Shown: one piece after another, positions 29,885-46,165 of the stretch
Numbering within the stretch: position 1 is the stretch's first letter
Layout: each line of letters opens with the position of its first letter
From: a virus
Lineage: Duplodnaviria; Caudoviricetes
Length of the DNA: 64,000 bases
Virus record (IMG/VR): IMGVR_UViG_3300025608_000006
Direction: 5' to 3' (one strand)
Position numbers and translations under genes: made by a program
The notes under the pieces: model-generated
Databases searched by the model: none
Told to the model about the DNA's origin: nothing
What the model saw: only the letters and a program-made list of their open reading frames with translations

Positions 29885-30850
29885 ATGATGACAAATATAA
29901 CAAAAGAGTTTACATACGACCAAACCGACGATCAATATTCGCAAACCAATGTAGATCTTACTAAAGCAACAATGACGTATTCAGGTCCTGCATACAAATA
30001 TGTGGTATTTGATAGTACAACAAATAAAATGGTTAATGCAACTATTCCAGAAGAACAATGGGATAATGGTGAATTCAATAATCAAGATGACGGCCAATAT
30101 GCTGTTAGAATTGACTGCAATGAAGAAACTTTAATTTGCGCTCTACTACCAGCTGACGGTAATTTTGATATTGACACGCTGTCAACAGTTAGCGAAGAAG
30201 TTCCAGGATCTGCAATTCCTTATGTTAGAAATGATCCAATGTTGCCAGATCACGTTTACGAAGTTACTGAAATAGTATATAATCCTGACACTGAGAGTTT
30301 TGTTAAACCGTTTCCTTGGAAGGCTCCAATAATGGATTGGGAAACATTTATTAACTACAGAAACAATTTATTGAATAATGCGGATCGCAGTCTGTCAGAA
30401 GATTTACCAGAATCGGTATATAACAAAGTAGCTAAGTTTAAAAAATATTTGAGAAATTTGCCTACAACCTGCGGTGCCGCTTGGGATATTACATTGGATA
30501 ATGCTGGATCTGGATATGCTGTAGGAGACAGTATTTTACTATCAGATCCTGCATTTAAAAATAATACTAATGCAGCAGATATTCTACTTACTGTTTCAGA
30601 GGTAGATGACTCCGGAGCAATTACTGCATTTACTTCATCTTCGAAACACTGTTACAACTATCATAAAGAAGCAGGTTCGTACACAAATGTGTTTTATACA
30701 TCAGACTCTAGCAATGGATCAGGTGCAACAATTGATATGTCAAAAATTGCAACAGTTGCTCCGCATAAGATTACAATAATTAGAAATCCTATCGAAAACG
30801 TCGACAGAGTAGACGGGCATTCTTCTGCGTTAGATAATCTTCCAGATTAA
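29885..30850 (+). CDS. Tail-fibre assembly chaperone-like protein with an extra C-terminal repeat domain
   Basis: YRNNLLNNAD...KKYLRNLP motif; paralogous N-terminus to 27679..28326 (FTYD...A...Y.GP). Confidence 0.65.
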   Translation: MMTNITKEFTYDQTDDQYSQTNVDLTKATMTYSGPAYKYVVFDSTTNKMVNATIPEEQWDNGEFNNQDDGQYAVRIDCNEETLICALLPADGNFDIDTLSTVSEEVPGSAIPYVRNDPMLPDHVYEVTEIVYNPDTESFVKPFPWKAPIMDWETFINYRNNLLNNADRSLSEDLPESVYNKVAKFKKYLRNLPTTCGAAWDITLDNAGSGYAVGDSILLSDPAFKNNTNAADILLTVSEVDDSGAITAFTSSSKHCYNYHKEAGSYTNVFYTSDSSNGSGATIDMSKIATVAPHKITIIRNPIENVDRVDGHSSALDNLPD

Positions 30851-30868: not shown

Positions 30869-30898
30869 AAAAAAGGCGCTAGGTGCGCCTTTTTTTTT
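30869..30898 (+). terminator. Intrinsic (potentially bidirectional) terminator
   Basis: AAAAAAGGCGC-TAGGT-GCGCC-T9. Confidence 0.9.
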
Positions 30899-30973
30899 GA
30901 GTTCAGTTTGGTCCATTCAGCATACATCCTACTAATAAATAAATGCATACATAACTTAGATAGGACTTTATAT

Positions 30974-31933
30974 ATGTCAAGAAATAAAGCATTTTTTATT
31001 AATGGCGGCGCAGGAAGAGTAGTGTGCTCTATACCCGCATTAGAAAAATTTCACGAAGAAAATCCAGACAACGACTTCCTTATTGTTTGCGAAGGCGGCA
31101 CTGATTTTTACAAAGGACACCCGGTTTTACATGCTAAAGCATATGATGTGTGGCATAAAAACTTGTTTGAAGATAAACTAAAAGATATGGAACTAGTAAG
31201 TCCAGAACCTTACAGAGTTTGGGAATATTATAACCAAAAAGCAAATCTATCACAAGCATACGATATTGAAATAAACAATAAAGGTGTAAGAGATTTGCCC
31301 AAACCTACTATTAGATTAAGCAAGCAAGAAAAACTTTCCGCAGCACAAGTAGTACGAGAAGTAAAAGAAAAAACAGGAAAAGATAAAGCTGTAGTATTTC
31401 AACCGTTTGGCCGAGGTGTTGTAAATGACAATGGAATGATTACAGACTTTAGTGGAAGAAGCTTTGAACCAGAAACTGTTGTTAATCTTGTTAAAGAACT
31501 ATCCAAGGAGTATGCTATAATTTTTATGGGTGAAATTGCAATTGAATTTCAAAAACATGGAATAACACAGCCAATCGCAATCCCGCAAAATATTGATTTA
31601 AGAACATGGACTGCAATCATTAGTCAATCAGACCACTTCCTGGGTTGTGATAGTGTTGGACAGCATTTAGCATATTCTTTAGATATACCTGCAACTGTTG
31701 TCGTCGGAAGTACATTTAAAGAAAATGTATCGTATCCAGATCATAAACCATTTAATGTATTGGATATGGGCGAAGGTGCTAGAATTTACAGTCCTATTCG
31801 TATTACACAAGACGAGTATACAGACAGAATGAATGAAGGCATTATGGCAATGAACGATAAGGTCGAAGAGGTTATTATTTCTACTGTAAAAGATTCAATG
31901 TCTGATAAAAAGAAAGCCGATAAAAAGAAATAA
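30974..31933 (+). CDS. GT9-like (ADP-heptose heptosyltransferase-type) glycosyltransferase
   Basis: N-terminal GGAGRVVCSIPAL and C-terminal SDHFLGCDSVGQHLAYSLDIPATVVVGST resemble GT9 (G.DSG..H.A.A...P...LFG.T). Start moved to the ATG at 30974 after AGGA; late promoter at 30935-30941. Confidence 0.75.
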   Translation: MSRNKAFFINGGAGRVVCSIPALEKFHEENPDNDFLIVCEGGTDFYKGHPVLHAKAYDVWHKNLFEDKLKDMELVSPEPYRVWEYYNQKANLSQAYDIEINNKGVRDLPKPTIRLSKQEKLSAAQVVREVKEKTGKDKAVVFQPFGRGVVNDNGMITDFSGRSFEPETVVNLVKELSKEYAIIFMGEIAIEFQKHGITQPIAIPQNIDLRTWTAIISQSDHFLGCDSVGQHLAYSLDIPATVVVGSTFKENVSYPDHKPFNVLDMGEGARIYSPIRITQDEYTDRMNEGIMAMNDKVEEVIISTVKDSMSDKKKADKKK

Positions 31934-31934
31934 T

Positions 31935-32804
31935 ATGTCAAGGCTGTTTACATTCGGATGTAGTTTTACTAATTATGCTTGGCCAACTTGGGCAGATTTT
32001 CTTGGATTAGAATTTGATTATTTTGAAAATTGGGGCGTCCCGGGTATTGGCAATGTTGCTATTGCTAATAGAGTAGCTGAGTGTTTTGTAAAAAATAATA
32101 TTACTAATGAAGATACTGTGATTATACAATGGACAAGCCATATTAGACATGATTATCATTTGTTCAAAGAAGAAACAGATAGAGATGCAGCAAACGGATG
32201 GAAAACCAAAGGAAGCATATTTGGTTATACTAATTTAGAACTGTATGATAAAAAATGGTTAGACACTTTTTTCGATGAAAATTCGTATATAATGCTGTCT
32301 TTAAATGCAATTTATTCTACACTAGAGCTTGTTAAATCTAAAAAATGCAATTGGAAAATGACTAGTATAGGAGAGTTTGAAAAGCTAGGAACGGATTTTA
32401 CAATAAATCCTGGAGGATACGGAGAAATTAATTCTTTAACATCTGATAGCTTGTGGGATCACGAGTTATTTCTTCCTTATAAGAAAGTATGGAATGAGCC
32501 AAACTGGCTTGAGCCTATAGGATGTTACACCTGGAAAAATAAAGAAGAGTTATATACATGGGATGTTGGTGAAAGTAAAAAAACTTGGACGGATCCACAT
32601 CCGTCACCTAACTTGGGCATTGATTGGTTATATAATGTAGTTAAGCCGAGTTTAAATATGCCGAATAATAAATTAACATTAAAACAAATAGAATGGCTTG
32701 AAATATGCCGAGAAGCTCGAACGAATATTCCAGATTTACAAATGTTTGGTGACGTGTTAGAGTTTGAATTAGATGCTTACGATAAAAGATATAGAGGATA
32801 TTAA
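31935..32804 (+). CDS. SGNH/GDSL-like fold protein (possible sugar acyl-esterase/transferase)
   Basis: Block I FGCSFT, block II WGVPGIGN, IIQWTSHIR, and C-terminal DPHP. Confidence 0.55.
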   Translation: MSRLFTFGCSFTNYAWPTWADFLGLEFDYFENWGVPGIGNVAIANRVAECFVKNNITNEDTVIIQWTSHIRHDYHLFKEETDRDAANGWKTKGSIFGYTNLELYDKKWLDTFFDENSYIMLSLNAIYSTLELVKSKKCNWKMTSIGEFEKLGTDFTINPGGYGEINSLTSDSLWDHELFLPYKKVWNEPNWLEPIGCYTWKNKEELYTWDVGESKKTWTDPHPSPNLGIDWLYNVVKPSLNMPNNKLTLKQIEWLEICREARTNIPDLQMFGDVLEFELDAYDKRYRGY

Positions 32805-32805
32805 A

Positions 32806-34605
32806 ATGAAAAAACATACGTGGATTGCTGGTATTGCTAGAGGACACAATGCAGGAGTATGTCTTTTAAAAGACGGCGAAATTGTGTTCAGTATTGAGGA
32901 AGAAAGACTCACCCGTTCAAAATACGACGGCGGTCCTTTAGCAAGTATGCTTAAAATTAAAGAGTATACAGATAAAATAGATTTTCTTTGTATTTCGCAT
33001 ACAACTCCATTGTCTGCTACTGCTGGAAAACTAGATTACACTGGAGAAGATGTTTACAGTGGACTTGCAAGAAAAGTAGGGTTAATTGATAAATTGGCGC
33101 TTGACGAATACGGACGCCATCCTCAAGTTATTGATATGGCAATGTATCACCACAAGATGCATGCAGGTATGGCTTTTTATCGTAGCGGCTTTGAAGAGGC
33201 AGTTGCAGTTATAGTCGACGGTGCTGGGACATTCTTCCCAATTACAATCGACGGTGATAGTCTTACAGTTTATGAAACTGAAAGTATCTATAAATGCGAA
33301 TACCCAGCAACTATCAAAACTTTACATAAAACTATGGGCGCAAGAGAAATGATAGTAAATGCTTATGTTGAAGACTTTGATGCTGGAGAATGGGAACCCG
33401 GCGCGAAATTTGATTTGAGTATTTCAGATAAAGCAGGAATTGTTAAGTCCTATGAAGCAGTAACAGAGTACTGCGGCTGGAGTAGTATCGAAGCCGGCAA
33501 AACAATGGGACTATTTCCGTACGGTAAAGAAAATGATCAAATACCAAACATCGTTGATAAAAATGATTATCCATTTCCTACGATAAACAGGAATTCAATA
33601 TTGCCGAGATATCCAAACGGAGCAGTTGTAAATACTTCACCTTATGAATATTTAAGAGATAATACAGATGGCGATATTACATTATTACAAAATAGAAGAG
33701 ACATGGCATATGCTGTGCAAACCGAAACACAAAAAGCAGTTGCGGATTTAATTAGACATGCTGTAAATATTAGTGGATCTAAAAATGTAGTTATCAGTGG
33801 CGGATATGGATTAAATTGTGTTGCTAACTATTATTATTTAAAAGAACTCCAAAACGAAGGAATCAATATTTACGTAGAGCCTATATCAAACGACGCGGGT
33901 ACTGCAATGGGCGCCGCACTAATATGGCATCATCAACATACACAGAGTATCGAAGTTAAGCCACAAGCTGATAATGTATACTTAGGACCAGAGTATAACT
34001 ATTCAGAAGACGATATTACTGAAGTTGTTGAAAAATACAATGTTGAAATTTCAGAAGCAACAGAACAAGATGCAGTTGATTTAATTGTAGATAGGAACAT
34101 TGTAACACTATTTCAAGGCAGATCCGAAAATGGACCTAGAGCTTTAGGAAATAGAAGTATTATGTATGATCCAACAGATGATAATGCAAAAGATTTTGTT
34201 AACAGTGTCAAGCATCGAGAATACTTCCGTCCATTTGCAGGAAGTATTCTAGAAGAAGATGTACACGAATGGTTTGATTTAAGAGGAATGAAAAATTCTC
34301 CTACAATGATGTATGCTGTAAATTGTATGCCCGGCATTGAAGAAAAAATACCAGGAATTATACATGTAGATGGAACATGTCGTATTCAAACAGTAACAAA
34401 GGAACAAAATCCAAATTACTACAGTATTATTAAAGCATTTAAAGAAAAGACAGGATGTCCAATAATTTTCAATACTAGTTTTAATCTAGGCGGGGAGCCA
34501 TTAGTAGAAACATTGGACGATGCTGTACGTACACTTGTTGAAAGTGAAATTGAATACTTATACTTGCCGGAATACAATAAGTTAATAACTGTCAAAAACC
34601 GATAA
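32806..34605 (+). CDS. O-carbamoyltransferase, NodU/CmcH family
   Basis: GHNAGVCLL..EEERLTRSK, HHKMHAGMAFY, VDGAG, AGKTMGL, GGYGLNCVAN, NDAGTAMGAA, GPRALGNRSI, KHREYFRPFA, HVDGTCRIQTV and NTSFNLGGEPLV. Confidence 0.93.
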   Translation: MKKHTWIAGIARGHNAGVCLLKDGEIVFSIEEERLTRSKYDGGPLASMLKIKEYTDKIDFLCISHTTPLSATAGKLDYTGEDVYSGLARKVGLIDKLALDEYGRHPQVIDMAMYHHKMHAGMAFYRSGFEEAVAVIVDGAGTFFPITIDGDSLTVYETESIYKCEYPATIKTLHKTMGAREMIVNAYVEDFDAGEWEPGAKFDLSISDKAGIVKSYEAVTEYCGWSSIEAGKTMGLFPYGKENDQIPNIVDKNDYPFPTINRNSILPRYPNGAVVNTSPYEYLRDNTDGDITLLQNRRDMAYAVQTETQKAVADLIRHAVNISGSKNVVISGGYGLNCVANYYYLKELQNEGINIYVEPISNDAGTAMGAALIWHHQHTQSIEVKPQADNVYLGPEYNYSEDDITEVVEKYNVEISEATEQDAVDLIVDRNIVTLFQGRSENGPRALGNRSIMYDPTDDNAKDFVNSVKHREYFRPFAGSILEEDVHEWFDLRGMKNSPTMMYAVNCMPGIEEKIPGIIHVDGTCRIQTVTKEQNPNYYSIIKAFKEKTGCPIIFNTSFNLGGEPLVETLDDAVRTLVESEIEYLYLPEYNKLITVKNR

Positions 34606-34627
34606 ATACTAAAAATAGGGGCAGTTA

Positions 34628-35065
34628 ATGCAAAATTTAAAAAAGTTTTTGACAAATGGTTTGAAGAACACAATTTTATTTAAGAATAATCTAGGGACTA
34701 GTCACAATGGTCCTTGGAAACAAGTACATACAGATACTTTACTAGACAGATGGCACGTAGGAGAATTTTCTAGTGTAGAGTATACTATAAGTGCTGATTA
34801 TGATGTTGAAAATAAAGAAGTTATAAAAGTTTTAGTTACTGCGTCAAAAGACCGTGCAAGTATAGTAGTATTTGCAAGAAATCATACACTTGATGATATT
34901 CTTACAATAAGTGCTACTGTAAATAATAGTTATGTAGATGTTATTTTAAATCCTGTAATTGTTGCAGAAGATCTAGAAAACGCTATCACTGCAAAAGACT
35001 TTACAGGAACAAAGGTCATTTATACTGCACAATATTTTCACACACAAACTCCGTTAGTAGTCTGA
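34628..35065 (+). CDS. Hypothetical structural protein (145 aa)
   Basis: Late promoter at 34602-34608; beta-rich sequence. Confidence 0.7.
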   Translation: MQNLKKFLTNGLKNTILFKNNLGTSHNGPWKQVHTDTLLDRWHVGEFSSVEYTISADYDVENKEVIKVLVTASKDRASIVVFARNHTLDDILTISATVNNSYVDVILNPVIVAEDLENAITAKDFTGTKVIYTAQYFHTQTPLVV

Positions 35066-35101
35066 ACTGTAGTCAGATAAATAACATATAGGAGAATGTA
35101 A

Positions 35102-35989
35102 ATGCCGATAGTAAACTCGCCATTTGAATCGCAGTATGGTTTTAAAGGACCGGGATTTTCTGTCGATTCTGAAGGTAACATTATTGCTGCATCTATTACT
35201 ACAGTAGATGAAGCTGATACAGATGAAGTTTTATTTGTAAATTTTACTGTTACTGATGCAGACAACGACTTTTTTATTGCAGAATTAGGTGAAGCACCAA
35301 ATCCTACTATTACAGTTTCTAGACAAGAAACATACAGTTTCAGTCTTGACATACCAGATTTAAAAATTCAAATTCTTACAGGCAATGAGCTTGAATCACT
35401 ACAGTACAACAGTGGCATAAGTCACTCTGACGGATCTCAAGGGGCTGATGCACAACTTAAAGTAGACGGTGTACTAAGATGGAGTGTTCCATTAAATGCT
35501 CCGGATACATTATATTATTCAGATGAACTTAGAAATAACATTGGAGTAATCAATGTTGTTGATCCTACTGGACTGTTTAGTACAATAGATGTTAACTCTA
35601 CAACTAACTCAACTAGTGCAACAACTGGTGCAATTACTGTAGCTGGCGGCGTTGGAATTGAAAAAGATTTACATGTAGCCGGCGAACTGAATTTATCCGG
35701 AGTAGGAATACCAAAACTAAGTTCATTAACCAATTTAGAACTAAATGCAGAAAACAAGATAATTCTTCAAGTTGCTGATATAAAACTTGGCGAATTAAAT
35801 TCTTCTGGATTAAGTATTACAATAAATAACAGCACTATAGACAATACGGCAATTGGAGGAACTGCTCCAGCAGCAGCAGCATTTACATCAGCAACAGTAA
35901 CACAGACACCTGTGACTAATACTAGTGTAACTAATCGGCAGTATGTGGATAGTACGGCACTATCATTAGCAATAGCATTTGGATTATAA
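35102..35989 (+). CDS. Fibre-associated protein with a degenerate cupredoxin-like domain
   Basis: NPTITVSRQETYSF...WSVPLNAPDTLYYSDELRNNIGVINV, with the metal ligands absent; late promoter at 35077-35083. Confidence 0.65.
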   Translation: MPIVNSPFESQYGFKGPGFSVDSEGNIIAASITTVDEADTDEVLFVNFTVTDADNDFFIAELGEAPNPTITVSRQETYSFSLDIPDLKIQILTGNELESLQYNSGISHSDGSQGADAQLKVDGVLRWSVPLNAPDTLYYSDELRNNIGVINVVDPTGLFSTIDVNSTTNSTSATTGAITVAGGVGIEKDLHVAGELNLSGVGIPKLSSLTNLELNAENKIILQVADIKLGELNSSGLSITINNSTIDNTAIGGTAPAAAAFTSATVTQTPVTNTSVTNRQYVDSTALSLAIAFGL

Positions 35990-35992
35990 AAC

Positions 35993-38900: not shown

Positions 38901-41900
38901 CTGTTGCAACAACAGGCGGCTCTGGCACCGGACTAACATTGACGATTACTGAAGGCGGCGACGGAATTATTACAGATGTTACAATCGTAGACGCAGGATC
39001 AGGGTATGCTGAATTTGATGTAGTAACACTATCAACTGGCAACGGCGATGCAACTGTAAGAATTGGTAGTGTAAAATCTATAGGAGCAATTAACACAGTT
39101 ACATTTGCTGGTTCAGCTCCACAAGTAGATAAAACATTTACAGGGGTTGCATATACTACAACATCAGCTAGTGGTTCTGCCGCAGTTATTGATGTTCAAG
39201 TTACAGGCGATTCGTATACAGTAATATTTACAAATAATGGAATAAATTTTGTTCCTACTGAGACCATCACTGTTGCAGGCGATCAGTTAGGCGGCGCCAC
39301 ACCAGCTAACGATTTAACAATTACAATTGATAATGTTGACGCCAACGGCACCATTACATCGTTTACTGCTGTTGGTGTGACATTTAATGGAGACACTTTA
39401 TCAGGAATACCTGGTATAAATAGAGTTCCGATAGATGCTACATTTGATGTTACTCAAAACCCCGAGGGTGTATTTAACGCTACATTAGTAGCACCTGGAG
39501 AAGGGTACAACGTTGGACAAATACATACTATTTCCGGAACTGTTTTCGGAGGCACGACACCTGAAAACGACTTATCGATTACTATAACATCAATTACTGA
39601 CTTGGAAGGAGGCGAAATACAAACAATTACAGCATCAGGCACAGGATACATTCCTATTGGTGTATATATTGATGTTGTCGGAACTAACAATCCTTCTTTA
39701 GGTACAGGTGCAGAATTTACTATAATTAGAAATTCAGGAAATTATTCAAGTATTTCTATTACTAATCCTGGTTCAGGATATGAACCAGGAAACAGACTAG
39801 AAGTTGAAGCTTCGGTAGTTGACGGAGTATCTCCACTAAATGATATTCTTATAAATGTTACAACTGTTGATGAAACTGGCGGCATTTCGGCATTTACTAC
39901 ATCATCAGTAGAAGCAGCACCTGGAGAAAATATAGATTTAATATCAACAGTAACGATGTCGGAAGCAACAACGGCGCCAATCGTATCAGGGGCTCCGATT
40001 ACGTTTAGTGCTGTCGCTACAATTGAGGCAGAATTTGAAACAGCACACGGATTAGTTCCGGGTGATACATTTATTACCAGTATTGATTCTGACGATGGAT
40101 CAAACAATCACGAATTAGCAGCAGGATCTTATATTGCTACTGAGATACCGTCTACATTAACGTTACGATTCCAAGCAAGAACAGTGGGATCGATTGATAT
40201 TGATAATAATAATGATCCGATACTCGGATCAGTATACCCAAGACCTGATAGCTTCTTTATACACAGACCGTTTGACGGCGGCGTACAACTAGGAACAGGC
40301 GGTCCGCAACACGGTGCGCAAGCAATTCGTCAAAGTAAAAAGTACATTCGTTATCAGTCAGGTAAAGGCATTATGTACACAACTGGTGCGCTATTTGCTC
40401 CAAGTTATGATATACGTAGTGTTACAGCTGACGGCGTAGAAGTTGGATCAGAAATTACAATTACAACAGACGACAACGATCACGGTGTACAAGTTGGCGG
40501 AATAATTAGATTATTGGGTGTAGACACTCCTGGCTATAACAGTGGACCACAAACTGCTGTCCCGCCACAATTTGATTACGAAGTTGTTGAAGTAGTAAAC
40601 GAGCGTACATTTAAAGTTTTATCTCAACGCAGACTTGGCGCAACAACAGCGGTATTGGGCTTTGCAGCACAAATGAGTGTTGTTAGATGGCACGGCGCCA
40701 CTGTACGTTCAGGTATCTTTGATGATCAAAATGGAATTTTCTGGGAATACGATGGCACACAGATCAACGTGGTACAACGTACTGGTACATATCAAGTAGC
40801 AGGCACTATTGCAATCGATGTTGACAAAAATGCTGTAACTGGAACTGATACTAGATTTAGAGATCAACTTAAAGCTGGCGATAGGATTATTATTAGAGGT
40901 ATGACACATGTTGTGTCTCATGTTATTGATCAAACTAATATGACAGTAACGCCTGACTTTAGAGGTGTATCTAATGTTACTGGTGCCAAAGCAATGCTAG
41001 TGTTTGACAAGCGTACCAAGCAAGCAGACTTTAACTTAGATAGATTAGACGGAACAGGACCTAGCGGATACGATATTGACATTGCTAAGATGCAGATGAT
41101 CGGAATTCAATACAGTTGGTACGGTGCTGGTTTCATTGACTTTATGCTACGTGGTGCAGACGGTAACTTTGTATTTGCACACAGAATGCGTAACTCAAAC
41201 GTGAACACAGAAGCGTTTATGAGATCAGGTAACTTGCCTGTTCGTTACGAAGTTACTAATGAAGGTCCTAATGCAAAACTAGCTGCTGACATGAACAGCA
41301 CTCAAGTTACTGTGCCTTTGGATAGCGAAAACGGCAAGTTTTTCCCGACATCTGGTACTGTTTATATAGACAATGAAATTATTAATTTTACAGGAAGAAC
41401 AGGCAATACTTTAACAGGATGCACAAGATCTGCTGTATTTACAAATTTCCAAGGCGGATCTGTAAGAAGTTATACAGCAGGAGATGCTTCTGCGCATAGT
41501 AGCAGTACTGGAGTGGTACTAATATCTCAAACTACTACGCCATTAATTAGTCACTGGGGTAGTGCGTTTATTACAGACGGCGGATTTGACGAAGATCGAG
41601 GATACATTTTCTCATATGCTGAAACTGGTGTTACTATTAGTACTACTAAACAGACTGCATTTATGATTAGACTATCACCTAGTGTGTCAAATGCTATTGT
41701 AGGCGACTTAGGCGAAAGAGAACTACTAAACCGTGCGCAGCTTCTACTACAGGGACTTGAAATTACATCAGCTTCTGGCGCAGCAGGCGAAGGCGGCATC
41801 ATTGTTGAAGGTGTGTTGAATCCGCAAAACTTCCCAATTGATCCAGGAAGTGTAAGTTGGCAAGGACTAAGCGGTGTTGCTCAAGGTGGACAGCCCAGTT

Positions 41901-42721
41901 TTGCTCAGATTGCTCCGGGCGGTGGTACACAGTGGAGTACAGGTGATGCTGCTACTACAGCTACTGCAACTGCACAAGCAAATATCGAAACTACAGCTGA
42001 TGTACGTTATAATAGATCAAATACTAGCTATGTAGATGTTCGACAAGCTTCCTTTGAAAGCACAGGTGCTCAGGTTGGAGACTTTGTATCGGGAACGTCG
42101 GGATCTGCTAATTCAAGTTTCTCAACTCCCAGGCAAATAACTTTCATAAATGGACCGTGGGGAAGAGGCGATCAAAATAGTAGATATTATAGACTGTATT
42201 TTAACAGTAGGTATTCAGGCACAGTAAGCGGAACAGTTACTCTACAGCGCCAAACGTCACTGACCAACTCAAGTTTTGCATATTTAGATGTTAACACTTT
42301 CTTAGCATCAAATGCAATTCCCGGCACCGCAGTTACACAAACAGGCGGGTCCGTAACATTCCCAGCTAGTACACTAATTTCTTCTATTGCACTGGAAGAA
42401 TTTGGGAATACGGAATATTATAAAGTTTCGTTCAATCAGACGTTTAGTGGAACATTAGTACAAAATACAGGCACTGTTCAATTTGAATTTGTTCAACCAC
42501 CATTTGCCCAACCGGGAGAAACAGTATTCTCGTTTATTGCGACTCCAGGTGAACGTTCTACACTAGATCTATCGGCATTGAAAGAACTTACAAACACTCC
42601 GTTGGGAGGCAGAGGGACGTTCCCCAATGGCCCTGATGTATTAGCTATTAATGTTTATAAGATTAGTGGCGCTGATATCGACGGTAACTTGATTCTAAAA
42701 TGGGGCGAAGCGCAGGCTTAA
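35993..42721 (+). CDS. Giant fibre/appendage protein (2242 aa) with a cupredoxin-like domain and internal repeats
   Basis: G/T/S-rich; HPFYF...YFYQCSSHANMVGTITV at about 37490-37670; repeated G.GA.FD(I/V)...G..Y..GD...GG.TP.ND units; WYGAG-containing C-terminal domain. Confidence 0.85.
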   Translation: MAKTQIKNYVFKPGIGANDYRYPNAYSLINSNKEFIQKESTAWIQSQVDADAAGFVGYTYNQEKCERDVGYIIDAYLNDLRYGGNEKLYNTVKYYWDQGVAQVDGDREPEIQTHTWIGNLIQDNILAQVAYSALNTKVSQTLTGTASESTSTFTPTGATYTPTTGVMNVTIGTHTLSVGDEIFIAPGGISFTCTLDGDATEHPYPRASGVPNDTGKDPFYYAPLIITDTTSTTITVNVGISSDTSTHTFSSALADSVTSGPATKINTLAFNTVDVITNGLGAQPTLVPVGVGTIKIQGRYSIDELLLISNSTRSEVLYNFTNVNTGALIEIKDTIDEDFLKFKETTDGVSTIKLNYDTSDHLSTDDIQIFVEEKEVRTRPFDFGTDAIERPRAAMPVSMLDADFEYGLQPTKWSAIGTMRGYPSVYEIPGTDTDVVRVVTDSSLSEPVRIFTADVTNSGTNDWVWSNAQDRNGNVTGNDPSITLIEGDTLIVTNNANSSHPFYFKTIQGTGTANPVSNVTNNGGNTGEEIIWVTQPGDAGTYFYQCSSHANMVGTITVLANDQGSGVGQSLITVSTVAAHGFEAGTPISIKALENSIAGASRAEGTFIIVNVPSNTTFQYFAKAKVGSTVGEVLSTGYTQLREAGFYTGASIGQPEFTIASNGSSGTMFAQLGVLSGEVVIPFDGSAPELGSPLSQSSIPVGSQVTSIIDQSEGGGTFVTPLSNSNIPAGQNQITVQDITGVVENLAVDRGDGNAIYITSVDGNTITFNGNFTREIIGNRNEYIGVEPDNDTGIGSGAKFDISYSGDSSLTYVIDAIENDGINYKVGDRITILGTQLGGATPANDAVIVVDEVGSANSIAVASINGLHFDNDLLLEGQTATFTGGNGAGAGFDISFQDGIFSSVDVTAAQTGADYAIGDVLTAAADVLVPGYSGPERILYISVDEVETTGGQATSVQLQDGGTGYTSGTTVATTGGSGTGLTLTITEGGDGIITDVTIVDAGSGYAEFDVVTLSTGNGDATVRIGSVKSIGAINTVTFAGSAPQVDKTFTGVAYTTTSASGSAAVIDVQVTGDSYTVIFTNNGINFVPTETITVAGDQLGGATPANDLTITIDNVDANGTITSFTAVGVTFNGDTLSGIPGINRVPIDATFDVTQNPEGVFNATLVAPGEGYNVGQIHTISGTVFGGTTPENDLSITITSITDLEGGEIQTITASGTGYIPIGVYIDVVGTNNPSLGTGAEFTIIRNSGNYSSISITNPGSGYEPGNRLEVEASVVDGVSPLNDILINVTTVDETGGISAFTTSSVEAAPGENIDLISTVTMSEATTAPIVSGAPITFSAVATIEAEFETAHGLVPGDTFITSIDSDDGSNNHELAAGSYIATEIPSTLTLRFQARTVGSIDIDNNNDPILGSVYPRPDSFFIHRPFDGGVQLGTGGPQHGAQAIRQSKKYIRYQSGKGIMYTTGALFAPSYDIRSVTADGVEVGSEITITTDDNDHGVQVGGIIRLLGVDTPGYNSGPQTAVPPQFDYEVVEVVNERTFKVLSQRRLGATTAVLGFAAQMSVVRWHGATVRSGIFDDQNGIFWEYDGTQINVVQRTGTYQVAGTIAIDVDKNAVTGTDTRFRDQLKAGDRIIIRGMTHVVSHVIDQTNMTVTPDFRGVSNVTGAKAMLVFDKRTKQADFNLDRLDGTGPSGYDIDIAKMQMIGIQYSWYGAGFIDFMLRGADGNFVFAHRMRNSNVNTEAFMRSGNLPVRYEVTNEGPNAKLAADMNSTQVTVPLDSENGKFFPTSGTVYIDNEIINFTGRTGNTLTGCTRSAVFTNFQGGSVRSYTAGDASAHSSSTGVVLISQTTTPLISHWGSAFITDGGFDEDRGYIFSYAETGVTISTTKQTAFMIRLSPSVSNAIVGDLGERELLNRAQLLLQGLEITSASGAAGEGGIIVEGVLNPQNFPIDPGSVSWQGLSGVAQGGQPSFAQIAPGGGTQWSTGDAATTATATAQANIETTADVRYNRSNTSYVDVRQASFESTGAQVGDFVSGTSGSANSSFSTPRQITFINGPWGRGDQNSRYYRLYFNSRYSGTVSGTVTLQRQTSLTNSSFAYLDVNTFLASNAIPGTAVTQTGGSVTFPASTLISSIALEEFGNTEYYKVSFNQTFSGTLVQNTGTVQFEFVQPPFAQPGETVFSFIATPGERSTLDLSALKELTNTPLGGRGTFPNGPDVLAINVYKISGADIDGNLILKWGEAQA

Positions 42722-43341
42722 ACTTGCGCTTCCATCCAATCTGCGAAAGATTTAAGATCATCAAATATGATGGTCTTTTTTCTTATGTCGCGGTAGGTAA
42801 ACTTCTTTAATTCTTTTTCAGTTTCAGAGCCGTAACCGGTTCGAACTAATACAGGTTTTGCACCTATTTTGTGGGCAGCTTTGAGATCACTCATTTTATC
42901 ACCCACATAGTATCCGCGATTAAATTTAATTTTTTTATGTTTTTGTTCTTTTTCGCAACGTTTGAACATTCCAGTATTGGGTTTAGCATACATATCAGAT
43001 TTATGACTACTTGCACTATAGTAAATGGCATCGATGCTTGGACAACCAGCTTTACCCAATAATTCTAACATGTACATATGCAATGCTTCGACATCTTCTT
43101 CAGTAAATAATCCTTTTTCGATGCCGCCTTGATTTGTTATGATAGCAATTCCGTGGCCTAACTTGCGCAATCGTGCAATTGCTTCTAGACTGCCTTCAAT
43201 AGGATCAAAGTCAGATCCCTTCCAAGTATATGTGCCGCGATCAACATTTATTACGCCATCTCTATCTAATCCAATTACACACTTGGGTGCAACATAATCA
43301 GGCGAAGATAATTGGTCGTCTCCCCAGTAAATATCAATCAT
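42718..43341 (-). CDS. gmhB: D-glycero-D-manno-heptose-1,7-bisphosphate phosphatase (HAD)
   Basis: GLDRDGVINVD, IITNQGGI, KPNTGM, YYVGDKMSDLKAA and LVRTGYG. Confidence 0.9.
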   Translation of the reverse strand: MIDIYWGDDQLSSPDYVAPKCVIGLDRDGVINVDRGTYTWKGSDFDPIEGSLEAIARLRKLGHGIAIITNQGGIEKGLFTEEDVEALHMYMLELLGKAGCPSIDAIYYSASSHKSDMYAKPNTGMFKRCEKEQKHKKIKFNRGYYVGDKMSDLKAAHKIGAKPVLVRTGYGSETEKELKKFTYRDIRKKTIIFDDLKSFADWMEAQV

Positions 43342-43756
43342 CTTGATCTTCTGGATTTAAATTAGGCTCGTATTGATGTTTTTGACTATCGCCTGGAGCA
43401 ACGCGATAATTATCTTCAACACTATCAGCAGTACTCACTTCGGTAATACTAGAACCTTCTTCTAAACAAATTAACTGATGTGGTTGTAGAGGAGGATTGT
43501 GCCAAACATCGCCTTCTTTTAATACTTTTTCATATAACACTGCATCATTGGTGTCAATCCATCTTACCTTAAACCGTCCATTATTTACAAACCAAGTTTC
43601 GTCCTTTTCCTTGTGGAAATGCATGCTAAATTTTGCATTAGACTTTTCAAAGAACATAATTTTACCACAATACTTGTCGTTAGTGGCCCAAATTAATTCA
43701 TAACCCCATCCTTTAGGCACAACGCCGGTTAGTCTAGTTGGCTCTTCATTTTTCAT
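43334..43756 (-). CDS. Cupin-fold sugar isomerase-like protein (mannose-6-phosphate isomerase C-terminal type)
   Basis: KGWGYE, FSMHFHKEKDETW and PPLQPHQL form the two cupin metal motifs. Confidence 0.8.
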   Translation of the reverse strand: MKNEEPTRLTGVVPKGWGYELIWATNDKYCGKIMFFEKSNAKFSMHFHKEKDETWFVNNGRFKVRWIDTNDAVLYEKVLKEGDVWHNPPLQPHQLICLEEGSSITEVSTADSVEDNYRVAPGDSQKHQYEPNLNPEDQDD

Positions 43757-44564
43757 TGATGTAATCCTTTATACTAGTCCATTCCATATCTACTACAGAA
43801 TTTAATTTGTCTAAGTTTGCACATGTATACTTTTGATACTGTGATTTTAAATTATCTGGCATCGGTATATATTGTACGTCTGCAGAATATTTTTTAGCAA
43901 TTTCACGACCCACTGTATCGAAACTGGTAACAGCGCCTGTGCCTGCATTGAAAATGCCACTTGTATCTACACCCATCATTTTATCATGTAATCGGCAGAT
44001 ATCTTCTACACAAACAAAATCACGCTTATAGTTTTTGCTATCTTCAAAAAGTTTTACAACTCCATTGTTTATTGCTTGTTGTGTAAATTTAGTGTAAGGA
44101 CTAGCTTGATCGCCTTTGTGTTCTTCATTAGGACCGTATACATTAAAGTAGCGAAACCCTTGAATCGTAATTTGAAATTCGTCAATATACTGATTAATAA
44201 ATCTGTCAAACAAATATTTTGACCATGCATACGGACTTTGGGGCAACAATGACATGTCCTCTGTAAAGTGATCAGTAGGACCATATACGCTTGCACTACT
44301 TGCATATTGAAAATTAGTACCAAAGTTTTCACACACTTGTGCTAATCTTACACTAAACTCAAAATTTTGTTCAAGTATTTGATTTACGTCTGTGTATGTT
44401 GTACTACTGATTGCACCTAAGTGTATGCACCAGTCATAATCTTCTGTACTAGGAAGTATTCCTGGTTCCCATTCCCATCCTTCTACTTCATGACCTTGTG
44501 ATTGTAGATAGTGTGCAATATTCTTTCCAACAAATCCTTCGTGACCTGTTACTAATATTCTCAT
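43746..44564 (-). CDS. hldD: ADP-L-glycero-D-manno-heptose 6-epimerase (extended SDR)
   Basis: ILVTGHEGFVG, HLGAISSTT, YASSASVYG, PQSPYAWSKYLFD, GFRYFNVYGPNEEHKGDQAS, RDFVCVED and YQKYTCA. Confidence 0.88.
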   Translation of the reverse strand: MRILVTGHEGFVGKNIAHYLQSQGHEVEGWEWEPGILPSTEDYDWCIHLGAISSTTYTDVNQILEQNFEFSVRLAQVCENFGTNFQYASSASVYGPTDHFTEDMSLLPQSPYAWSKYLFDRFINQYIDEFQITIQGFRYFNVYGPNEEHKGDQASPYTKFTQQAINNGVVKLFEDSKNYKRDFVCVEDICRLHDKMMGVDTSGIFNAGTGAVTSFDTVGREIAKKYSADVQYIPMPDNLKSQYQKYTCANLDKLNSVVDMEWTSIKDYINEK

Positions 44565-45700
44565 TTGCTTGCCTCTATAATACTAGTTGTTGAATAACCT
44601 TCTTGTGTTTGTACTAGATGCACATCTGCTAAGTCGTGACCGACAACTTCGTCTACTGTGTAATCGCCGCCTTTAACAATAACATGCGGCTTTATTTCTT
44701 TAATTAATTCGTAAGGTGTATCTTCGTGAAACACAACTACTTGATCTACCCACGGTAATATTTCTAATTGACTGATGCGTTTCATTTGGTTGTTAACAGG
44801 GCGTGTTTCGCCCTTAAGGCGCTTTACACTAGCATCGCTGTTAATGCCTACAATTAGTTTTTCACCCAGTGTTCGTGCTTCTGCTAACAGCTCAAAATGA
44901 CCCTTGTGTAGTATATCAAAAACTCCGTTAGTAAACACTACTCTTTCTTCCAAGTCGCTTACAGCAAGCGTATACGTGCCCGTGTGCTGAACACTTTTGC
45001 GTGAGCCTTTAACTGCTAGTTCAATTGCTTTTTTGTAATCATAATCTTTTGTAAGGGCATAAACAAATGCAGCTAGAAAACAGTCTCCAGCACCAGTTAC
45101 ATCACTAACTTCAACAATGTCAACATCTACTTCGTAAACTTCATTGTCAATCTTAGCAACAACACTTTTGCCTGCTCTTGTTGTAATAATATTACCATGC
45201 CAATTAAGGAAGTATTCTTGAAATTCCTTTTCGTTGGGTTTAACTAACCATGCACCTTCGTAGTTTTCTGCATGTGACTTAGGATCAACAATTACACGGC
45301 ATCCAAATTTATTAAGATGTTCGATAATCTTAATAGACTCGTCTAATACACCTTTGTTGTAATCGCTTAGGATTACATACTCGTATTTGCTAAAGTCGTT
45401 GCGAAGAATTGTGTTGCAAACTTCGACGCCGTCTGCATAGTGATCGTCATCTATACGTGTAACATAGTGACCGTCGCACATAACGCGAGTCTTTACACAT
45501 TTTTTAGATGCATACTCAAACAGCTCAACATCAACACCGAGACTTTTTAAGTTTTCGTAAACAAGTCCTGCACCGCCTGTAGTTTCTACAACACGTTTTT
45601 GTGCTACTACAGGTACAGGCGCTTCGGGACTCAACCGTGTCGATGTTCCGTAAATATATTTGTCAATAATTATATCGCCAATAACTAACACTTTATTCAT
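44561..45700 (-). CDS. hldE: Bifunctional heptose-7-phosphate kinase / heptose-1-phosphate adenylyltransferase
   Basis: Kinase half: VIGDIIIDKY, RLSPEAPVPV, SDYNKGVL, DVTGAGDCF. NTase half: FTNGVFDILHKGH, GINSDASVKRLKGETRP, KGGDY, STTSII. Start moved to the ATG at 45700. Confidence 0.93.
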   Translation of the reverse strand: MNKVLVIGDIIIDKYIYGTSTRLSPEAPVPVVAQKRVVETTGGAGLVYENLKSLGVDVELFEYASKKCVKTRVMCDGHYVTRIDDDHYADGVEVCNTILRNDFSKYEYVILSDYNKGVLDESIKIIEHLNKFGCRVIVDPKSHAENYEGAWLVKPNEKEFQEYFLNWHGNIITTRAGKSVVAKIDNEVYEVDVDIVEVSDVTGAGDCFLAAFVYALTKDYDYKKAIELAVKGSRKSVQHTGTYTLAVSDLEERVVFTNGVFDILHKGHFELLAEARTLGEKLIVGINSDASVKRLKGETRPVNNQMKRISQLEILPWVDQVVVFHEDTPYELIKEIKPHVIVKGGDYTVDEVVGHDLADVHLVQTQEGYSTTSIIEASK

Positions 45701-45706
45701 AACATT

Positions 45707-45735
45707 ATTATACAATTATTTTTCTTAACTGTCAA
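45707..45735 (-). promoter_or_regulatory. Consensus sigma70 promoter for the hldE operon
   Basis: On the minus strand: TTGACA (45735-45730), 17 nt, TATAAT (45712-45707), 6 nt, then ATG at 45700. Confidence 0.85.
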
Positions 45736-46165
45736 GTAAATTAATAGTTTTAAATACAGTTTCTAGTTTAGCTAGATTAATTTTACTTTGGAGTGTATTA
45801 CGCAACCCGTGATGCAAAGGCTTTGGCCACTTAGTGAAACTGCACCATGCATATCCATTGTGTTCGTTGTTTAGTTGAGGAATAAATTCCTCATCCACAA
45901 CACAAAGATATGTGTGAAAATAAAATCTACTATCGTGAGATACAAAACTTTCTAGCGGAAGTGTTTTTTTAATAGACGGCAAGAAGCCAATTTCTTCTTC
46001 TATTTCTCGCCTCAGTCCTTCAAATGGTGTTTCAACGCCCTCATTAGTGCCGCCTACTAATCCCCAAAGATCAGATTTTTTACCATGAGCTCGATGTAGA
46101 AATAAAAATCTATGTGTATCTAATGTATAAAACAGTGCGCCACTGCAAGTAATCATATTGTTCAT
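45725..46165 (-). CDS. NUDIX hydrolase
   Basis: Nudix box variant WGLVGGTNEGVETPFEGLRREIEEEIG. Confidence 0.88.
   Translation of the reverse strand: MNNMITCSGALFYTLDTHRFLFLHRAHGKKSDLWGLVGGTNEGVETPFEGLRREIEEEIGFLPSIKKTLPLESFVSHDSRFYFHTYLCVVDEEFIPQLNNEHNGYAWCSFTKWPKPLHHGLRNTLQSKINLAKLETVFKTINLLDS

What the first reader, a model, noticed from the sequence alone, without database searches (positions are those of the whole stretch)
30974..45735. Split, temporally staged phage heptose-glycosylation system embedded in the fibre genes
Seen: hldE-hldD-cupin-gmhB on the minus strand behind a perfect sigma70 promoter. About 8 kb away, a GT9-like transferase, an SGNH-like protein and a carbamoyltransferase lie behind a T4-type late promoter, directly after the Cys-rich tip genes. 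Known: HldE/GmhB/HldD make ADP-L-glycero-D-manno-heptose; GT9 enzymes use it; some bacterial enzymes (Aah/TibC) heptosylate Ser-rich adhesins; LPS-type genes have been reported in T4-like cyanophages without a defined target. Inference: the donor is made early and the transferases late, which fits heptosylation (with carbamoyl/acyl tailoring) of virion fibres better than general host-LPS support. Alternatives are remodelling of host LPS for superinfection exclusion, or DNA modification.
Basis: partly seen in the sequence, partly recalled or inferred. Interest (0 to 1): 0.88.

Follow-up and report, generated by a model that had tools for sequence, protein, structure and literature searches.

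The report
Phage fibre-linked heptose-carbamoyl sugar module
A giant marine phage carries, among its tail-fibre genes, an unusual heptose-transferring enzyme always paired with a carbamoyl-adding enzyme, plus a separate optional cassette that makes the activated sugar; it probably decorates a virion protein, but the target is unproven and the proposed early/late "staging" is not a conserved feature.

Summary
The genes are there as described. HldE-, HldD-, cupin- and GmhB-like genes lie on the minus strand behind a perfect sigma70-type promoter. On the plus strand a divergent GT9-fold transferase, a possible SGNH-like protein and an O-carbamoyltransferase follow a T4-type late motif, directly after Cys-rich fibre-tip genes.

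- GT9-like and carbamoyltransferase genes are adjacent in 80 of 80 related viral loci, always in fibre modules.
- The heptose cassette is optional. It was found in 9 of 15 long related contigs, is absent from a 223-kb relative, and occurs in other cyanophages without this transferase.
- In cyanomyoviruses such as P-SSM2 and S-CAM1 all the genes are contiguous.
- The cassette also lies downstream of late structural genes with no terminator between them.
- The promoter is conserved in only one sub-clade. Staging is therefore lineage-specific at best.

Neither cluster version has GmhA. The conserved cupin probably replaces it, and the cyanophage "phosphoheptose isomerase" is really a HAD phosphatase. 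The transferase keeps the GT9 donor motifs but has Arg where WaaC has its catalytic Asp.

The acceptor (virion protein, host envelope or DNA) remains untested. This scan has reported both themes before on other DNA, and the genes have been known since 2005-2010 as cyanophage "LPS genes".

The parts
26918..30850 (+). Five fibre-tip genes: three Cys/Gly-rich paralogues (249, 252 and 257 aa; phrog_4205, Gly_rich_2) and two chaperone-like proteins (215 and 321 aa; phrog_9740, Phage_tail_APC)
   Evidence: syntenic with S-CAM1 gp105-108 and P-SSM2 gp304-306
30869..30895 (+). Intrinsic-terminator-like hairpin (11 pairs, followed by a T run) after the last tip gene
   Evidence: sequence
30935..30941 (+). 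T4-type late promoter-like motif (A)ATAAATA, 33 nt before the GT9-like ATG
   Evidence: positional enrichment P=7e-13
30974..31933 (+). Divergent GT9-fold glycosyltransferase (319 aa, phrog_8954), presumed heptosyltransferase
31935..32804 (+). orf289, a virus-only family, possibly SGNH/GDSL-like. Invariant G-C-S10, G-x-G-N40 and D-x-H222. Present in only part of the related loci
   Evidence: no Pfam or PDB sequence support
32821..34605 (+). NodU/TobZ-type O-carbamoyltransferase. The ORF opens at 32773; homology begins near residue 17
34628..35065 (+). orf145, unknown function, with its own ATAAATA motif at 34602
35102..35989 (+). orf295, resembling a baseplate-wedge/tail-fibre connector, with an ATAAATA motif at 35077
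35993..42721 (+). Giant virion structural protein (2242 aa; 20% Ser+Thr). It separates the two enzyme modules and converges on gmhB with a 4-nt overlap
42718..43341 (-). GmhB-like D,D-heptose 1,7-bisphosphate phosphatase (HAD-IIIA)
43334..43756 (-). Metal-binding cupin (phrog_7851, mislabelled 'cysteine dioxygenase'); candidate sedoheptulose-7-P isomerase replacing GmhA
43746..44564 (-). Short HldD-like ADP-heptose 6-epimerase (272 aa)
44561..45700 (-). HldE-like bifunctional heptose-7-P kinase and heptose-1-P adenylyltransferase (379 aa from the ATG at 45700)
45707..45735 (-). Perfect sigma70-type promoter (TTGACA, 17 nt, TATAAT). The ATG lies 6 nt after the -10 box, which implies a leaderless or near-leaderless mRNA
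45725..48695 (-). Upstream co-oriented backbone genes: a virion structural protein (369 aa), a gp15-like tail sheath stabiliser (470 aa) and NUDIX (146 aa). They are not part of the pathway, but late read-through into the cassette would come from here
48771..48777 (-). Late promoter-like ATAAATA on the minus strand, upstream of the 369-aa structural gene

Best explanation
Two linked but separable modules.

(1) A core tailoring pair is built into the tail-fibre module. It consists of a divergent GT9-fold glycosyltransferase and an O-carbamoyltransferase, here with an extra esterase-like orf289 between them. It sits behind a late-type promoter directly after the Cys-rich fibre-tip genes.

(2) An accessory, moron-like supply cassette (HldE, HldD, cupin, GmhB) is inserted between the backbone NUDIX gene and the giant virion gene. 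It has its own host-type promoter.

Proposed chemistry, all inferred:
- The cupin isomerises sedoheptulose-7-P to D-glycero-D-manno-heptose-7-P in place of GmhA.
- The HldE kinase domain makes the 1,7-bisphosphate.
- GmhB removes the 7-phosphate.
- The HldE adenylyltransferase domain makes ADP-D,D-heptose.
- HldD epimerises it to ADP-L,D-heptose.
- The GT9-like enzyme transfers the heptose to an acceptor.
- The carbamoyltransferase O-carbamoylates it. 7-O-carbamoyl-heptose in the Pseudomonas LPS core is the chemical precedent.

The most likely acceptor is a virion host-recognition protein (fibre tip or giant fibre protein) made at the same time.

Shown here: the gene identities, the fold, the linkage statistics and the promoter motifs. 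Inferred: the donor, the acceptor, the role of the cupin and all timing. Early-donor/late-transferase staging is possible in this sub-clade but is not a conserved design.
For: Enzyme identities.

GT9-like protein:
- GT9 fold: model pLDDT 95.7; top 31 PDB hits are GT9 (3TOV 1.5e-11, WaaC, WaaF, TibC).
- 36 of 84 family members hit PF01075.
- Donor motifs align to WaaF and WaaC: R162~K192, D226~D261, H231~H266.

Linkage:
- The GT9-like gene and the carbamoyltransferase are adjacent in 80 of 80 IMG/VR loci, with tip-gene homologues beside them in nearly all.
- The whole block (fibre, small proteins, Cys-rich tips, GT9-like, carbamoyltransferase) is syntenic with the cyanomyoviruses S-CAM1 and P-SSM2, although the backbone resembles PA5oct/Atu_ph07-type jumbo phages.
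- A distant homologue in Vibrio phage K479 sits between two giant virion/tail proteins.
- HldE lies within 8 kb of the pair in nine cyanophage-type genomes and in 9 of 15 long related contigs.

Promoter and cassette:
- Late-motif positional enrichment, P=7e-13.
- Cassette nature: a 223-kb relative has NUDIX abutting the giant gene and no heptose genes.
- The promoter hexamers and the 17-nt spacing are conserved while the spacer sequence varies.

Cupin:
- It is conserved in both cluster versions, and no SIS/GmhA gene is present.
- HxH..E..H is invariant.
- Weak but consistent hits to D-lyxose and mannose-6-P isomerases.

Other:
- Carbamoyl-heptose precedent: PMC8005017.
- Contigs from an RNA library, identical to the window, cover genes of both modules. 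This is weak, because DNA carry-over is possible.
Against: - No experiment or computation here identifies the acceptor; gene context is the only argument for a virion target.
- The GT9-like family has a near-invariant Arg where WaaC and WaaF have the catalytic Asp13, so even its activity and mechanism are unverified.
- The window protein itself has no Pfam hit.
- The heptose cassette is absent from some relatives. In S-T4 and P-TIM68 it is combined with other glycosyltransferases away from fibre genes. It is therefore not dedicated to this transferase.
- Unchecked first-reader notes say the same genome has other large glycan-tailoring islands that could use the donor.
- The cupin fold search does not discriminate isomerases from oxalate decarboxylase or CapF-type epimerases.
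- No virion proteome exists for any carrier of the module; the published proteomes are for S-SM1, S-PM2 and Syn9.
Confidence: 0.45

Rival explanations
1. Host envelope remodelling. The phage makes ADP-heptose and uses the GT9-like enzyme and the carbamoyltransferase to add carbamoyl-heptose to host LPS core or another surface glycan. This would block superinfection, prevent progeny from re-adsorbing to lysing cells, or support LPS synthesis. It is the classical 'LPS genes' reading.
For: - All characterised GT9 enzymes with this fold except TibC/Aah act on LPS.
- 7-O-carbamoyl-heptose is an LPS core feature.
- The literature interprets these genes this way (PMC7029224; PMC3037559; PMC7378029).
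- The host-type promoter would allow early expression of the donor.
- In S-T4 and P-TIM68 the heptose genes sit with several other glycosyltransferases in LPS-like clusters far from fibre genes.
Against: - The transferase carries a late-type motif and is embedded in fibre genes in 80 of 80 loci.
- A late-made cytoplasmic enzyme has little time to change the cell surface of a lytic host (inference).
- The catalytic Asp used by WaaC on Kdo/heptose acceptors is replaced by Arg.
- From general knowledge, not tested here: marine picocyanobacterial LPS is reported to lack heptose, so there is no obvious core acceptor in the hosts of the cyanophage carriers.
Confidence: 0.25
2. The modules are not a dedicated pair. 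The heptose cassette is a general sugar-nucleotide supply moron that feeds other glycosyltransferases of the phage or relieves a host bottleneck. The GT9-like enzyme and the carbamoyltransferase use another donor or make a soluble or non-protein glycoconjugate.
For: - The cassette is present or absent independently of the GT9-like/carbamoyltransferase pair.
- It travels with other glycosyltransferases in S-T4 and P-TIM68.
- It has its own promoter.
- Unchecked notes describe other glycan-tailoring islands in the same genome.
- Carbamoyltransferases occur in 146 phage records, most of them without the GT9-like gene.
Against: - Donor-binding motifs shared with ADP-heptose-using WaaC and WaaF are invariant.
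- In nine cyanophage-type genomes the heptose genes directly follow the GT9-like and carbamoyltransferase genes in one cluster.
- In the window's lineage the cassette lies at the other end of the same fibre block in at least ten contigs.
Confidence: 0.2
3. DNA hypermodification. Heptose, possibly carbamoylated, is attached to a modified base of the phage genome to evade restriction.
For: - Heptose and di-heptose on 5hmC have been produced from metagenomic phage gene clusters (bioRxiv 10.1101/2023.12.21.572611).
- Those clusters were also seen near structural genes.
Against: - The DNA heptosyltransferases described there are T4 beta-GT-like GT-B enzymes paired with a HAD/APH kinase and a cytidylyltransferase, not GT9.
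- The fold hits here are GT9, not beta-GT.
- No hydroxymethylase, methyltransferase or TET gene lies in the window region examined.
- A late promoter and a position in the fibre module are atypical for DNA-modification genes (inference).
Confidence: 0.05

Closest known systems
Cyanomyovirus 'LPS gene' cluster T4-GC 302-308 (P-SSM2 gp307-313, S-CAM1, S-CAM3, S-SSM7, P-SSM5; Sullivan et al. 2010, PMC3037559)
   Same: Orthologous GT9-like (49-61% identity), carbamoyltransferase (47-62%), cupin (38-41%) and HldD-like (37-40%) genes. The upstream fibre and Cys-rich tip block is the same and syntenic.
   Different: - There the genes are contiguous and mostly on one strand. The kinase and nucleotidyltransferase are separate genes in the opposite order, and the phosphatase is a small EcbF/BcbF-type HAD protein mislabelled 'phosphoheptose isomerase'.
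- Here HldE is fused as in bacteria and GmhB is of the standard type.
- Here the cassette is 8 kb away on the other strand with its own promoter, and orf289 is inserted.
- The backbone is a jumbo phage, not Kyanoviridae.
LPS inner-core heptosyltransferases WaaC/WaaF (CAZy GT9, PF01075; PDB 2H1H, 1PSW) with the putative Pseudomonas carbamoyltransferase WapO
   Same: GT-B fold, with GT9 enzymes as best structural matches. Conserved D-S/T-G-x-x-H and K/R donor-site positions. Heptose plus O-carbamoyl chemistry has a precedent in the Pseudomonas core.
   Different: - 11-14% identity.
- No Pfam hit for the window protein.
- Arg in place of the catalytic Asp13.
- A family-specific invariant E-P-Y motif.
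- Encoded among phage fibre genes rather than in an LPS core operon.
Bacterial autotransporter heptosyltransferases TibC / Aah (protein O-heptosylation of the adhesins TibA and AIDA-I; PDB 4RAP, 4RB4)
   Same: GT9-type fold match (E about 3e-8). These are the only known GT9-type enzymes that put heptose on a protein, and that protein is a surface adhesin encoded next to the enzyme. This is the functional analogy for fibre-tip glycosylation.
   Different: - No closer to TibC than to WaaC.
- The iron-finger and dodecamer features were not examined.
- The phage enzyme is shorter (319 aa against about 400 aa).
- No evidence of a protein acceptor here; the complex prediction with a tip protein gave no verdict.
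Bacterial ADP-L-glycero-beta-D-manno-heptose pathway (GmhA, HldE, GmhB, HldD)
   Same: HldE, GmhB and HldD homologues with catalytic motifs.
   Different: - GmhA is absent, and a cupin is conserved in its place.
- HldD lacks about 26 residues of the NADP-binding region.
- The HldE kinase domain is shortened.
- All scores fall below NCBIfam equivalog cut-offs.

Membership tests
CAZy GT9 / Pfam PF01075 heptosyltransferase | GT-B two-Rossmann fold closest to solved GT9 enzymes | tested here: met
   AF2 model pLDDT 95.7. Foldseek top 31 PDB hits are all GT9: 3TOV 1.5e-11 with TM 0.69, then WaaC, WaaF and TibC.
CAZy GT9 / Pfam PF01075 heptosyltransferase | Sequence match to the family model above threshold | tested here: not met
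   The window protein has no Pfam or NCBIfam hit. 36 of 84 relatives hit PF01075 at E<0.01, best 1.2e-8. The family profile hits WaaF at E=0.011. hhalign against WaaC gives E=2.2e-4, probability 45%.
CAZy GT9 / Pfam PF01075 heptosyltransferase | C-domain ADP-heptose binding positions (WaaC K192, D261, H266) | tested here: met
   R162, D226 and H231 align to them. D226 and H231 are invariant in 84 sequences.
CAZy GT9 / Pfam PF01075 heptosyltransferase | N-domain catalytic Asp (WaaC D13 in the G-D motif) | tested here: not met
   MAFFT places the near-invariant R15 (GGAGR) at the WaaC/WaaF G-D position. That D13 is the catalytic base is taken from general knowledge.
CAZy GT9 / Pfam PF01075 heptosyltransferase | Uses ADP-heptose as donor | not testable with these tools
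   Only gene linkage to HldE, HldD and GmhB.
BAHT protein heptosyltransferases (TibC/Aah) | Heptosylates Ser residues of a co-encoded adhesin; iron-finger, dodecamer | not tested
   Fold similarity only.
ADP-heptose biosynthesis pathway | HldE kinase and adenylyltransferase domains | tested here: met
   NF008454 E=1.9e-84; TIGR02198 E=8e-50; TIGR02199 E=1.4e-49. All are below the curated cut-offs. PDB HldA 4E84 and the cytidylyltransferase-like 5X9Q also match.
ADP-heptose biosynthesis pathway | GmhB phosphatase | tested here: met
   NF006506 E=3e-40. PDB 4PNH E=1.6e-21, with the DxDG motif.
ADP-heptose biosynthesis pathway | HldD 6-epimerase with the S/YxxxK/K catalytic set | tested here: met
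   TIGR02197 E=2e-67. The alignment to 1EQ2 keeps the YASSA, YxxSK and HKG motifs; about 26 residues of the N-terminal Rossmann part are missing.
ADP-heptose biosynthesis pathway | GmhA (SIS-fold sedoheptulose-7-P isomerase) | tested here: not met
   No SIS gene in the operon. PF13580 is absent from 5 long related contigs. The cyanophage 'phosphoheptose isomerase' is a HAD phosphatase and has no homologue in the window.
NodU/CmcH/TobZ O-carbamoyltransferases | Carbam_trans_N and Carbam_trans_C domains above Pfam thresholds | tested here: met
   PF16861 E=4e-59 and PF02543 E=7e-24; phrog_1601 E=3.5e-165.
SGNH/GDSL hydrolases (orf289) | Sequence or fold match, plus Ser, Gly, Asn and His in blocks I, II, III and V | tested here: inconclusive
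   No Pfam or PDB sequence hit, even with a 22-sequence profile. Invariant G-C-S10, G37/G39-N40 and D-x-H222 fit the blocks. The Atlas model matches a viral cluster auto-named GDSL-like at TM 0.62-0.70, but only 10-18% of that cluster's members carry the Pfam family.
Cupin-type aldose-ketose isomerases (D-lyxose/mannose isomerase, PMI) | Cupin fold with metal ligands and specific similarity to sugar isomerases | tested here: inconclusive
   HxH..E..H invariant. Lyx_isomer hits in 19 of 19 and MannoseP_isomer hits in 16 of 19, all weak. Profile hit to 2Y0O at 7.5e-6, among generic cupins. Foldseek is undiscriminating.
T4-type late promoter | (T/A)ATAAATA positioned shortly upstream of late genes | tested here: met
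   Motif at 30935. 12 of 19 plus-strand copies lie within 60 nt upstream of gene starts, P=7e-13. Actual late transcription could not be tested.
Sigma70-type early promoter | -35 and -10 consensus with 17-nt spacing, conserved in relatives | tested here: met
   12 of 12 matches. Conserved in 6 of 10 related contigs with a variable spacer sequence. Activity and timing could not be tested. The -35 box overlaps the NUDIX coding sequence.

The most novel reading that the evidence does not exclude
Thousands of marine phages, of several backbones, would post-translationally O-heptosylate and carbamoylate their own receptor-binding fibre-tip proteins. They would do this with a dedicated GT9-derived enzyme that has swapped the catalytic Asp for Arg. 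Where the host cannot provide the donor, a portable ADP-heptose cassette supplies it, and its first step is run by a cupin isomerase instead of GmhA. This would be the first protein-heptosylation system in viruses. It would also be a new layer of host-range determination in ocean phages.
Probability: 0.35. Interest if true: 0.8.

Novelty: new variant of a known kind. Interest (0 to 1): 0.5.

Why it matters
These genes have been annotated as 'LPS genes' or 'hypothetical proteins' in ocean phages since 2005-2010 with no known function, and they are very abundant. More than 4,600 relatives of the transferase and more than 4,900 relatives of the cupin were found in metagenomes.

The transferase is a GT9 derivative locked to a carbamoyltransferase and to fibre-tip genes, while the sugar supply is a detachable cassette. 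That turns a vague annotation into specific experiments on cultured carriers such as P-SSM2, S-CAM1 and S-SSM7.

If virion proteins are the target, phage host recognition in the sea would involve a virus-made glycan. If the cupin is the isomerase, the textbook ADP-heptose pathway has an unrecognised alternative first enzyme.

The specific claim of this finding, temporal staging of donor and transferase, turns out to be a lineage-specific arrangement rather than a principle.

Tried and rejected
- Complex prediction of the GT9-like protein with the Cys-rich tip protein o257 gave no verdict (median score 0.04). It is evidence neither way.
- No whole genome is held for the window. Metagenome loci from the look-up of encoding contigs could not be searched as records.
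- The search for related loci with the 84-sequence alignment failed because no stretch was conserved enough. The single protein worked.
- The DNA-level search of the heptose operon against isolated phages found only short pieces of about 70% identity. orf289 has no homologue in isolated phages.
- The single-sequence PDB search with the GT9-like protein gave only chance hits.
- The Foldseek search with the cupin model gave generic cupins, so it does not settle isomerase against epimerase.
- Host: psbA (PF00124) was not found in five related fragments of 104-223 kb. These fragments are 30-60% complete, so the host stays unknown.
- Public runs place the sequence in marine metagenomes. Only assembled contigs were available, so no transcript ends, strand or timing could be read.
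- Literature searches for cyanophage + heptose + carbamoyltransferase, virion glycosylation + heptosyltransferase, and glycosylated tail fibre + phage-encoded glycosyltransferase found no paper that assigns a target.
- I considered and rejected NUDIX as part of the pathway. The gp15-NUDIX adjacency is a backbone feature of PA5oct-like jumbo phages that lack heptose genes.

Full report
**What is in the sequence**

The region holds two enzyme modules separated by a 2242-aa virion protein gene.

Plus strand, in order:
- The last fibre-tip gene ends at 30850.
- A strong terminator-like hairpin follows at 30869-30895.
- The motif AATAAATA lies at 30934-30941.
- A 319-aa ORF starts at the ATG at 30974. 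tblastn alignments to relatives begin there, not at the TTG at 30908.
- A 289-aa ORF follows.
- Next is a carbamoyltransferase with Carbam_trans_N and Carbam_trans_C above the Pfam thresholds.
- Two small ORFs follow, each with its own ATAAATA, and then the giant gene.

Minus strand, in order:
- An ATAAATA motif at 48777-48771.
- A 369-aa virion structural protein.
- A gp15-like sheath stabiliser.
- NUDIX.
- A perfect TTGACA-17-TATAAT promoter at 45735-45707.
- The HldE-like, HldD-like, cupin and GmhB-like genes.

The hldE start is the ATG at 45700, which gives the usual MNKVLVIGD N-terminus. The TTG at 45715 lies inside the promoter. The three tip paralogues are 7.5-10.9% Cys and about 20% Gly.

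**The promoter motifs are more than chance**

The total count of ATAAATA is not enriched. However, 12 of the 19 plus-strand copies lie within 60 nt upstream of a plus-strand gene start, a zone that makes up 4% of the window (P=7e-13). Only two perfect sigma70 consensus sites exist in the 64 kb. The other, at 49867, precedes a small P-loop/dNMP-kinase-like gene.

**The transferase**

- The 319-aa protein has no Pfam or NCBIfam hit and belongs to phrog_8954, of unknown function.
- It has more than 4,600 relatives in metagenomes. Some sources name them COG-style as ADP-heptose:LPS heptosyltransferase.
- An AlphaFold model built on 84 diverse relatives has pLDDT 95.7.
- Its 31 best PDB matches are all GT9 enzymes: Veillonella GT9 3TOV at E=1.5e-11 and TM 0.69, then WaaC, WaaF and TibC.
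- 36 of the 84 relatives hit PF01075 weakly.
- The family profile aligns to WaaF and WaaC over the donor site. R162 matches WaaC K192, and the invariant D226 and H231 match D261 and H266.
- In the N-domain the near-invariant GGAGR motif puts Arg15 where WaaC and WaaF have the Gly-Asp motif. From general knowledge, that Asp13 is the catalytic base.
- An invariant E78-P79-Y80 motif is specific to the phage family.

The protein is therefore a GT9-fold enzyme with a conserved donor pocket and a changed acceptor/catalytic side. It should be called GT9-like, not a verified heptosyltransferase.

**The supply cassette**

- HldE-like: both the kinase and the adenylyltransferase domain are present.
- GmhB-like: matches solved heptose bisphosphate phosphatases.
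- HldD-like: aligns to E. coli AGME with the catalytic Ser, YxxxK and Lys retained, but lacks about 26 residues of the NADP-binding part. The cyanophage orthologues have about the same length, 272-274 aa.
- No SIS-type GmhA is present here or in five long related contigs.
- The gene annotated 'phosphoheptose isomerase' in S-CAM1 and P-SSM2 is a small HAD phosphatase (TIGR01689).
- Both versions of the cluster therefore encode a kinase, a nucleotidyltransferase, a phosphatase, an epimerase and a cupin, and neither has GmhA.
- The cupin has invariant HxH..E..H metal ligands plus KGWGYE and YCGK motifs.
- It gives weak but consistent hits to D-lyxose isomerase (19 of 19 members) and to the mannose-6-P isomerase C-terminal domain (16 of 19).
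- Its profile hits the B. subtilis D-lyxose isomerase 2Y0O at 7.5e-6, among generic cupins.
- The fold search does not discriminate.

The most economical reading is that the cupin supplies the missing aldose-ketose isomerisation. A role as a sugar-nucleotide epimerase is not excluded.

**Relatives and linkage**

Backbone and synteny:
- The backbone (gp15-like, sheath) resembles the jumbo phages PA5oct, Atu_ph07 and SCTP-2 at about 33% identity. The gp15-NUDIX adjacency also occurs in the PA5oct group.
- The fibre block (giant fibres, two small proteins, Cys-rich tips and chaperone-like proteins, the GT9-like gene and the carbamoyltransferase) is syntenic with the cyanomyoviruses S-CAM1 and P-SSM2.
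- There the heptose genes follow immediately in one cluster.

Linkage of the transferase pair:
- In 80 IMG/VR loci with a transferase at least 60% identical, the carbamoyltransferase is adjacent in all 80. Tip homologues are nearby in nearly all.
- A distant homologue in Vibrio phage K479 lies between two giant virion/tail proteins, with no heptose genes nearby.

The split arrangement:
- It recurs in this lineage: contigs of 264, 162 and 146 kb and several IMG/VR loci.

Variable presence of the cassette:
- HldE was found in 9 of 15 long related contigs.
- A 223-kb relative has NUDIX directly abutting the giant gene. It has no heptose gene anywhere, yet it keeps the GT9-like gene, two orf289 copies and the carbamoyltransferase.
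- Conversely, S-T4 and P-TIM68 carry the heptose set, including the cupin and the HAD phosphatase, next to hli genes and other glycosyltransferases. They have no GT9-like gene or fibre genes nearby.

The transferase pair is thus the fixed part of the fibre module. The heptose cassette is a portable supply unit.

**Is the system 'temporally staged'?**

- In six of ten related contigs the TTGAC(A/G)-17-TATAAT promoter is conserved while the spacer sequence varies. The hldE ATG lies 5-6 nt after the -10 box, which implies a leaderless mRNA.
- The -35 box overlaps the last NUDIX codons, so part of its conservation may be due to coding.
- In the other four contigs there is no promoter. A GGAG site overlapping the NUDIX stop couples hldE to the upstream genes.
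- All ten keep the order gp15, NUDIX, hldE.
- In the window, no credible terminator separates the late-motif-driven structural genes from the cassette. Late read-through is therefore expected in addition to any early transcription.
- In cyanomyoviruses the donor and transferase genes share one cluster.

Staging is thus possible in this sub-clade but untested, and it is not a conserved property of the system.

The only expression data available were assembled contigs from one marine RNA library. Contigs identical to the window cover the last tip gene, the GT9-like gene, orf295, the giant gene and the hldD/hldE junction. This is weak evidence that both modules are transcribed, and it carries no timing information.

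**The acceptor**

Nothing here identifies it.

For a virion protein:
- The invariable position among fibre-tip genes, across three backbones.
- The late motif.
- The loss of the Asp that LPS heptosyltransferases use.
- The fact that TibC and Aah show a GT9-type enzyme can heptosylate an adjacent adhesin.

For the host envelope:
- The biochemical precedent: WaaC, WaaF and the putative WapO carbamoyl-heptose step.
- The published interpretation.

For DNA:
- Heptosyl-5hmC exists, but it is made by beta-GT-like enzymes with a different sugar-activation set.

I put a virion protein at about 0.45, the host envelope at 0.25, unlinked or other at 0.2, and DNA at 0.05.

**Novelty**

The gene set has been known since 2005-2010 as cyanophage 'LPS genes' of unknown function.

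Earlier follow-ups of this scan reached the same two readings on other DNA: a fibre-linked GT9-like/carbamoyltransferase module, and a cupin replacing GmhA. I reached both readings before looking those notes up.

What this window adds:
- The module in a jumbo-phage backbone.
- The cassette as a detachable unit with a conserved host-type, probably leaderless, promoter in one sub-clade.
- A direct test, largely negative, of the staging idea.

Noticed in passing
window 49867-49895 (+), upstream of ORF 49917-50441: The only other perfect TTGACA-N17-TATAAT site in the window. It precedes a 174-aa ORF with a weak dNMP-kinase P-loop hit and sits inside the late structural region. This suggests the phage marks inserted early-type genes with consensus host promoters.
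   Followed up: partly
window 45698-45712 (-) and L101-L105: The hldE ATG lies 5-6 nt downstream of the -10 hexamer in all six contigs that keep the promoter, so the transcript would be leaderless. The four contigs without the promoter have a GGAG site overlapping the NUDIX stop instead.
   Followed up: partly
window 48771-48791: An inverted repeat, TATTTATccgtcggATAAATA, places two late-promoter-like motifs back to back in the divergent region between the 369-aa structural gene (minus strand) and the head-tail adaptor-like gene (plus strand).
   Followed up: no
L001:12916-13239 (S-CAM1) and L002:13027-13371 (P-SSM2): Genes annotated 'phosphoheptose isomerase' in public cyanophage records are small HAD phosphatases (TIGR01689 EcbF/BcbF type), not SIS-fold GmhA. 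The neighbouring 'cysteine dioxygenase' or 'nucleotidyltransferase' is the cupin.
   Followed up: yes
window about 37319-37667 (residues 443-558 of the 2242-aa protein): The giant virion protein contains a segment with a plastocyanin/cupredoxin-like motif (HPFYF...YFYQCSSHANM) that matches phrog_9158.
   Followed up: no
G001 (L091) 57625-59292: orf289 is tandemly duplicated in the heptose-cassette-free relatives, and it is absent from other relatives and from cyanomyoviruses. It is a variable add-on to the GT9-like/carbamoyltransferase pair.
   Followed up: partly
window 15966-26231: Two very large paralogous fibre genes (1572 and 1833 aa, phrog_9851) share their N- and C-terminal parts with the S-CAM1 'polymorphic membrane protein' and the P-SSM2 tail fibre gp301. 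Related contigs show weak CBM_5_12 hits.
   Followed up: no
window 42718-42721: The giant gene (plus strand) and gmhB (minus strand) converge and overlap by 4 nt at their stop codons. A terminator-like hairpin for the plus strand lies inside the 3' end of gmhB (42754-42777).
   Followed up: no
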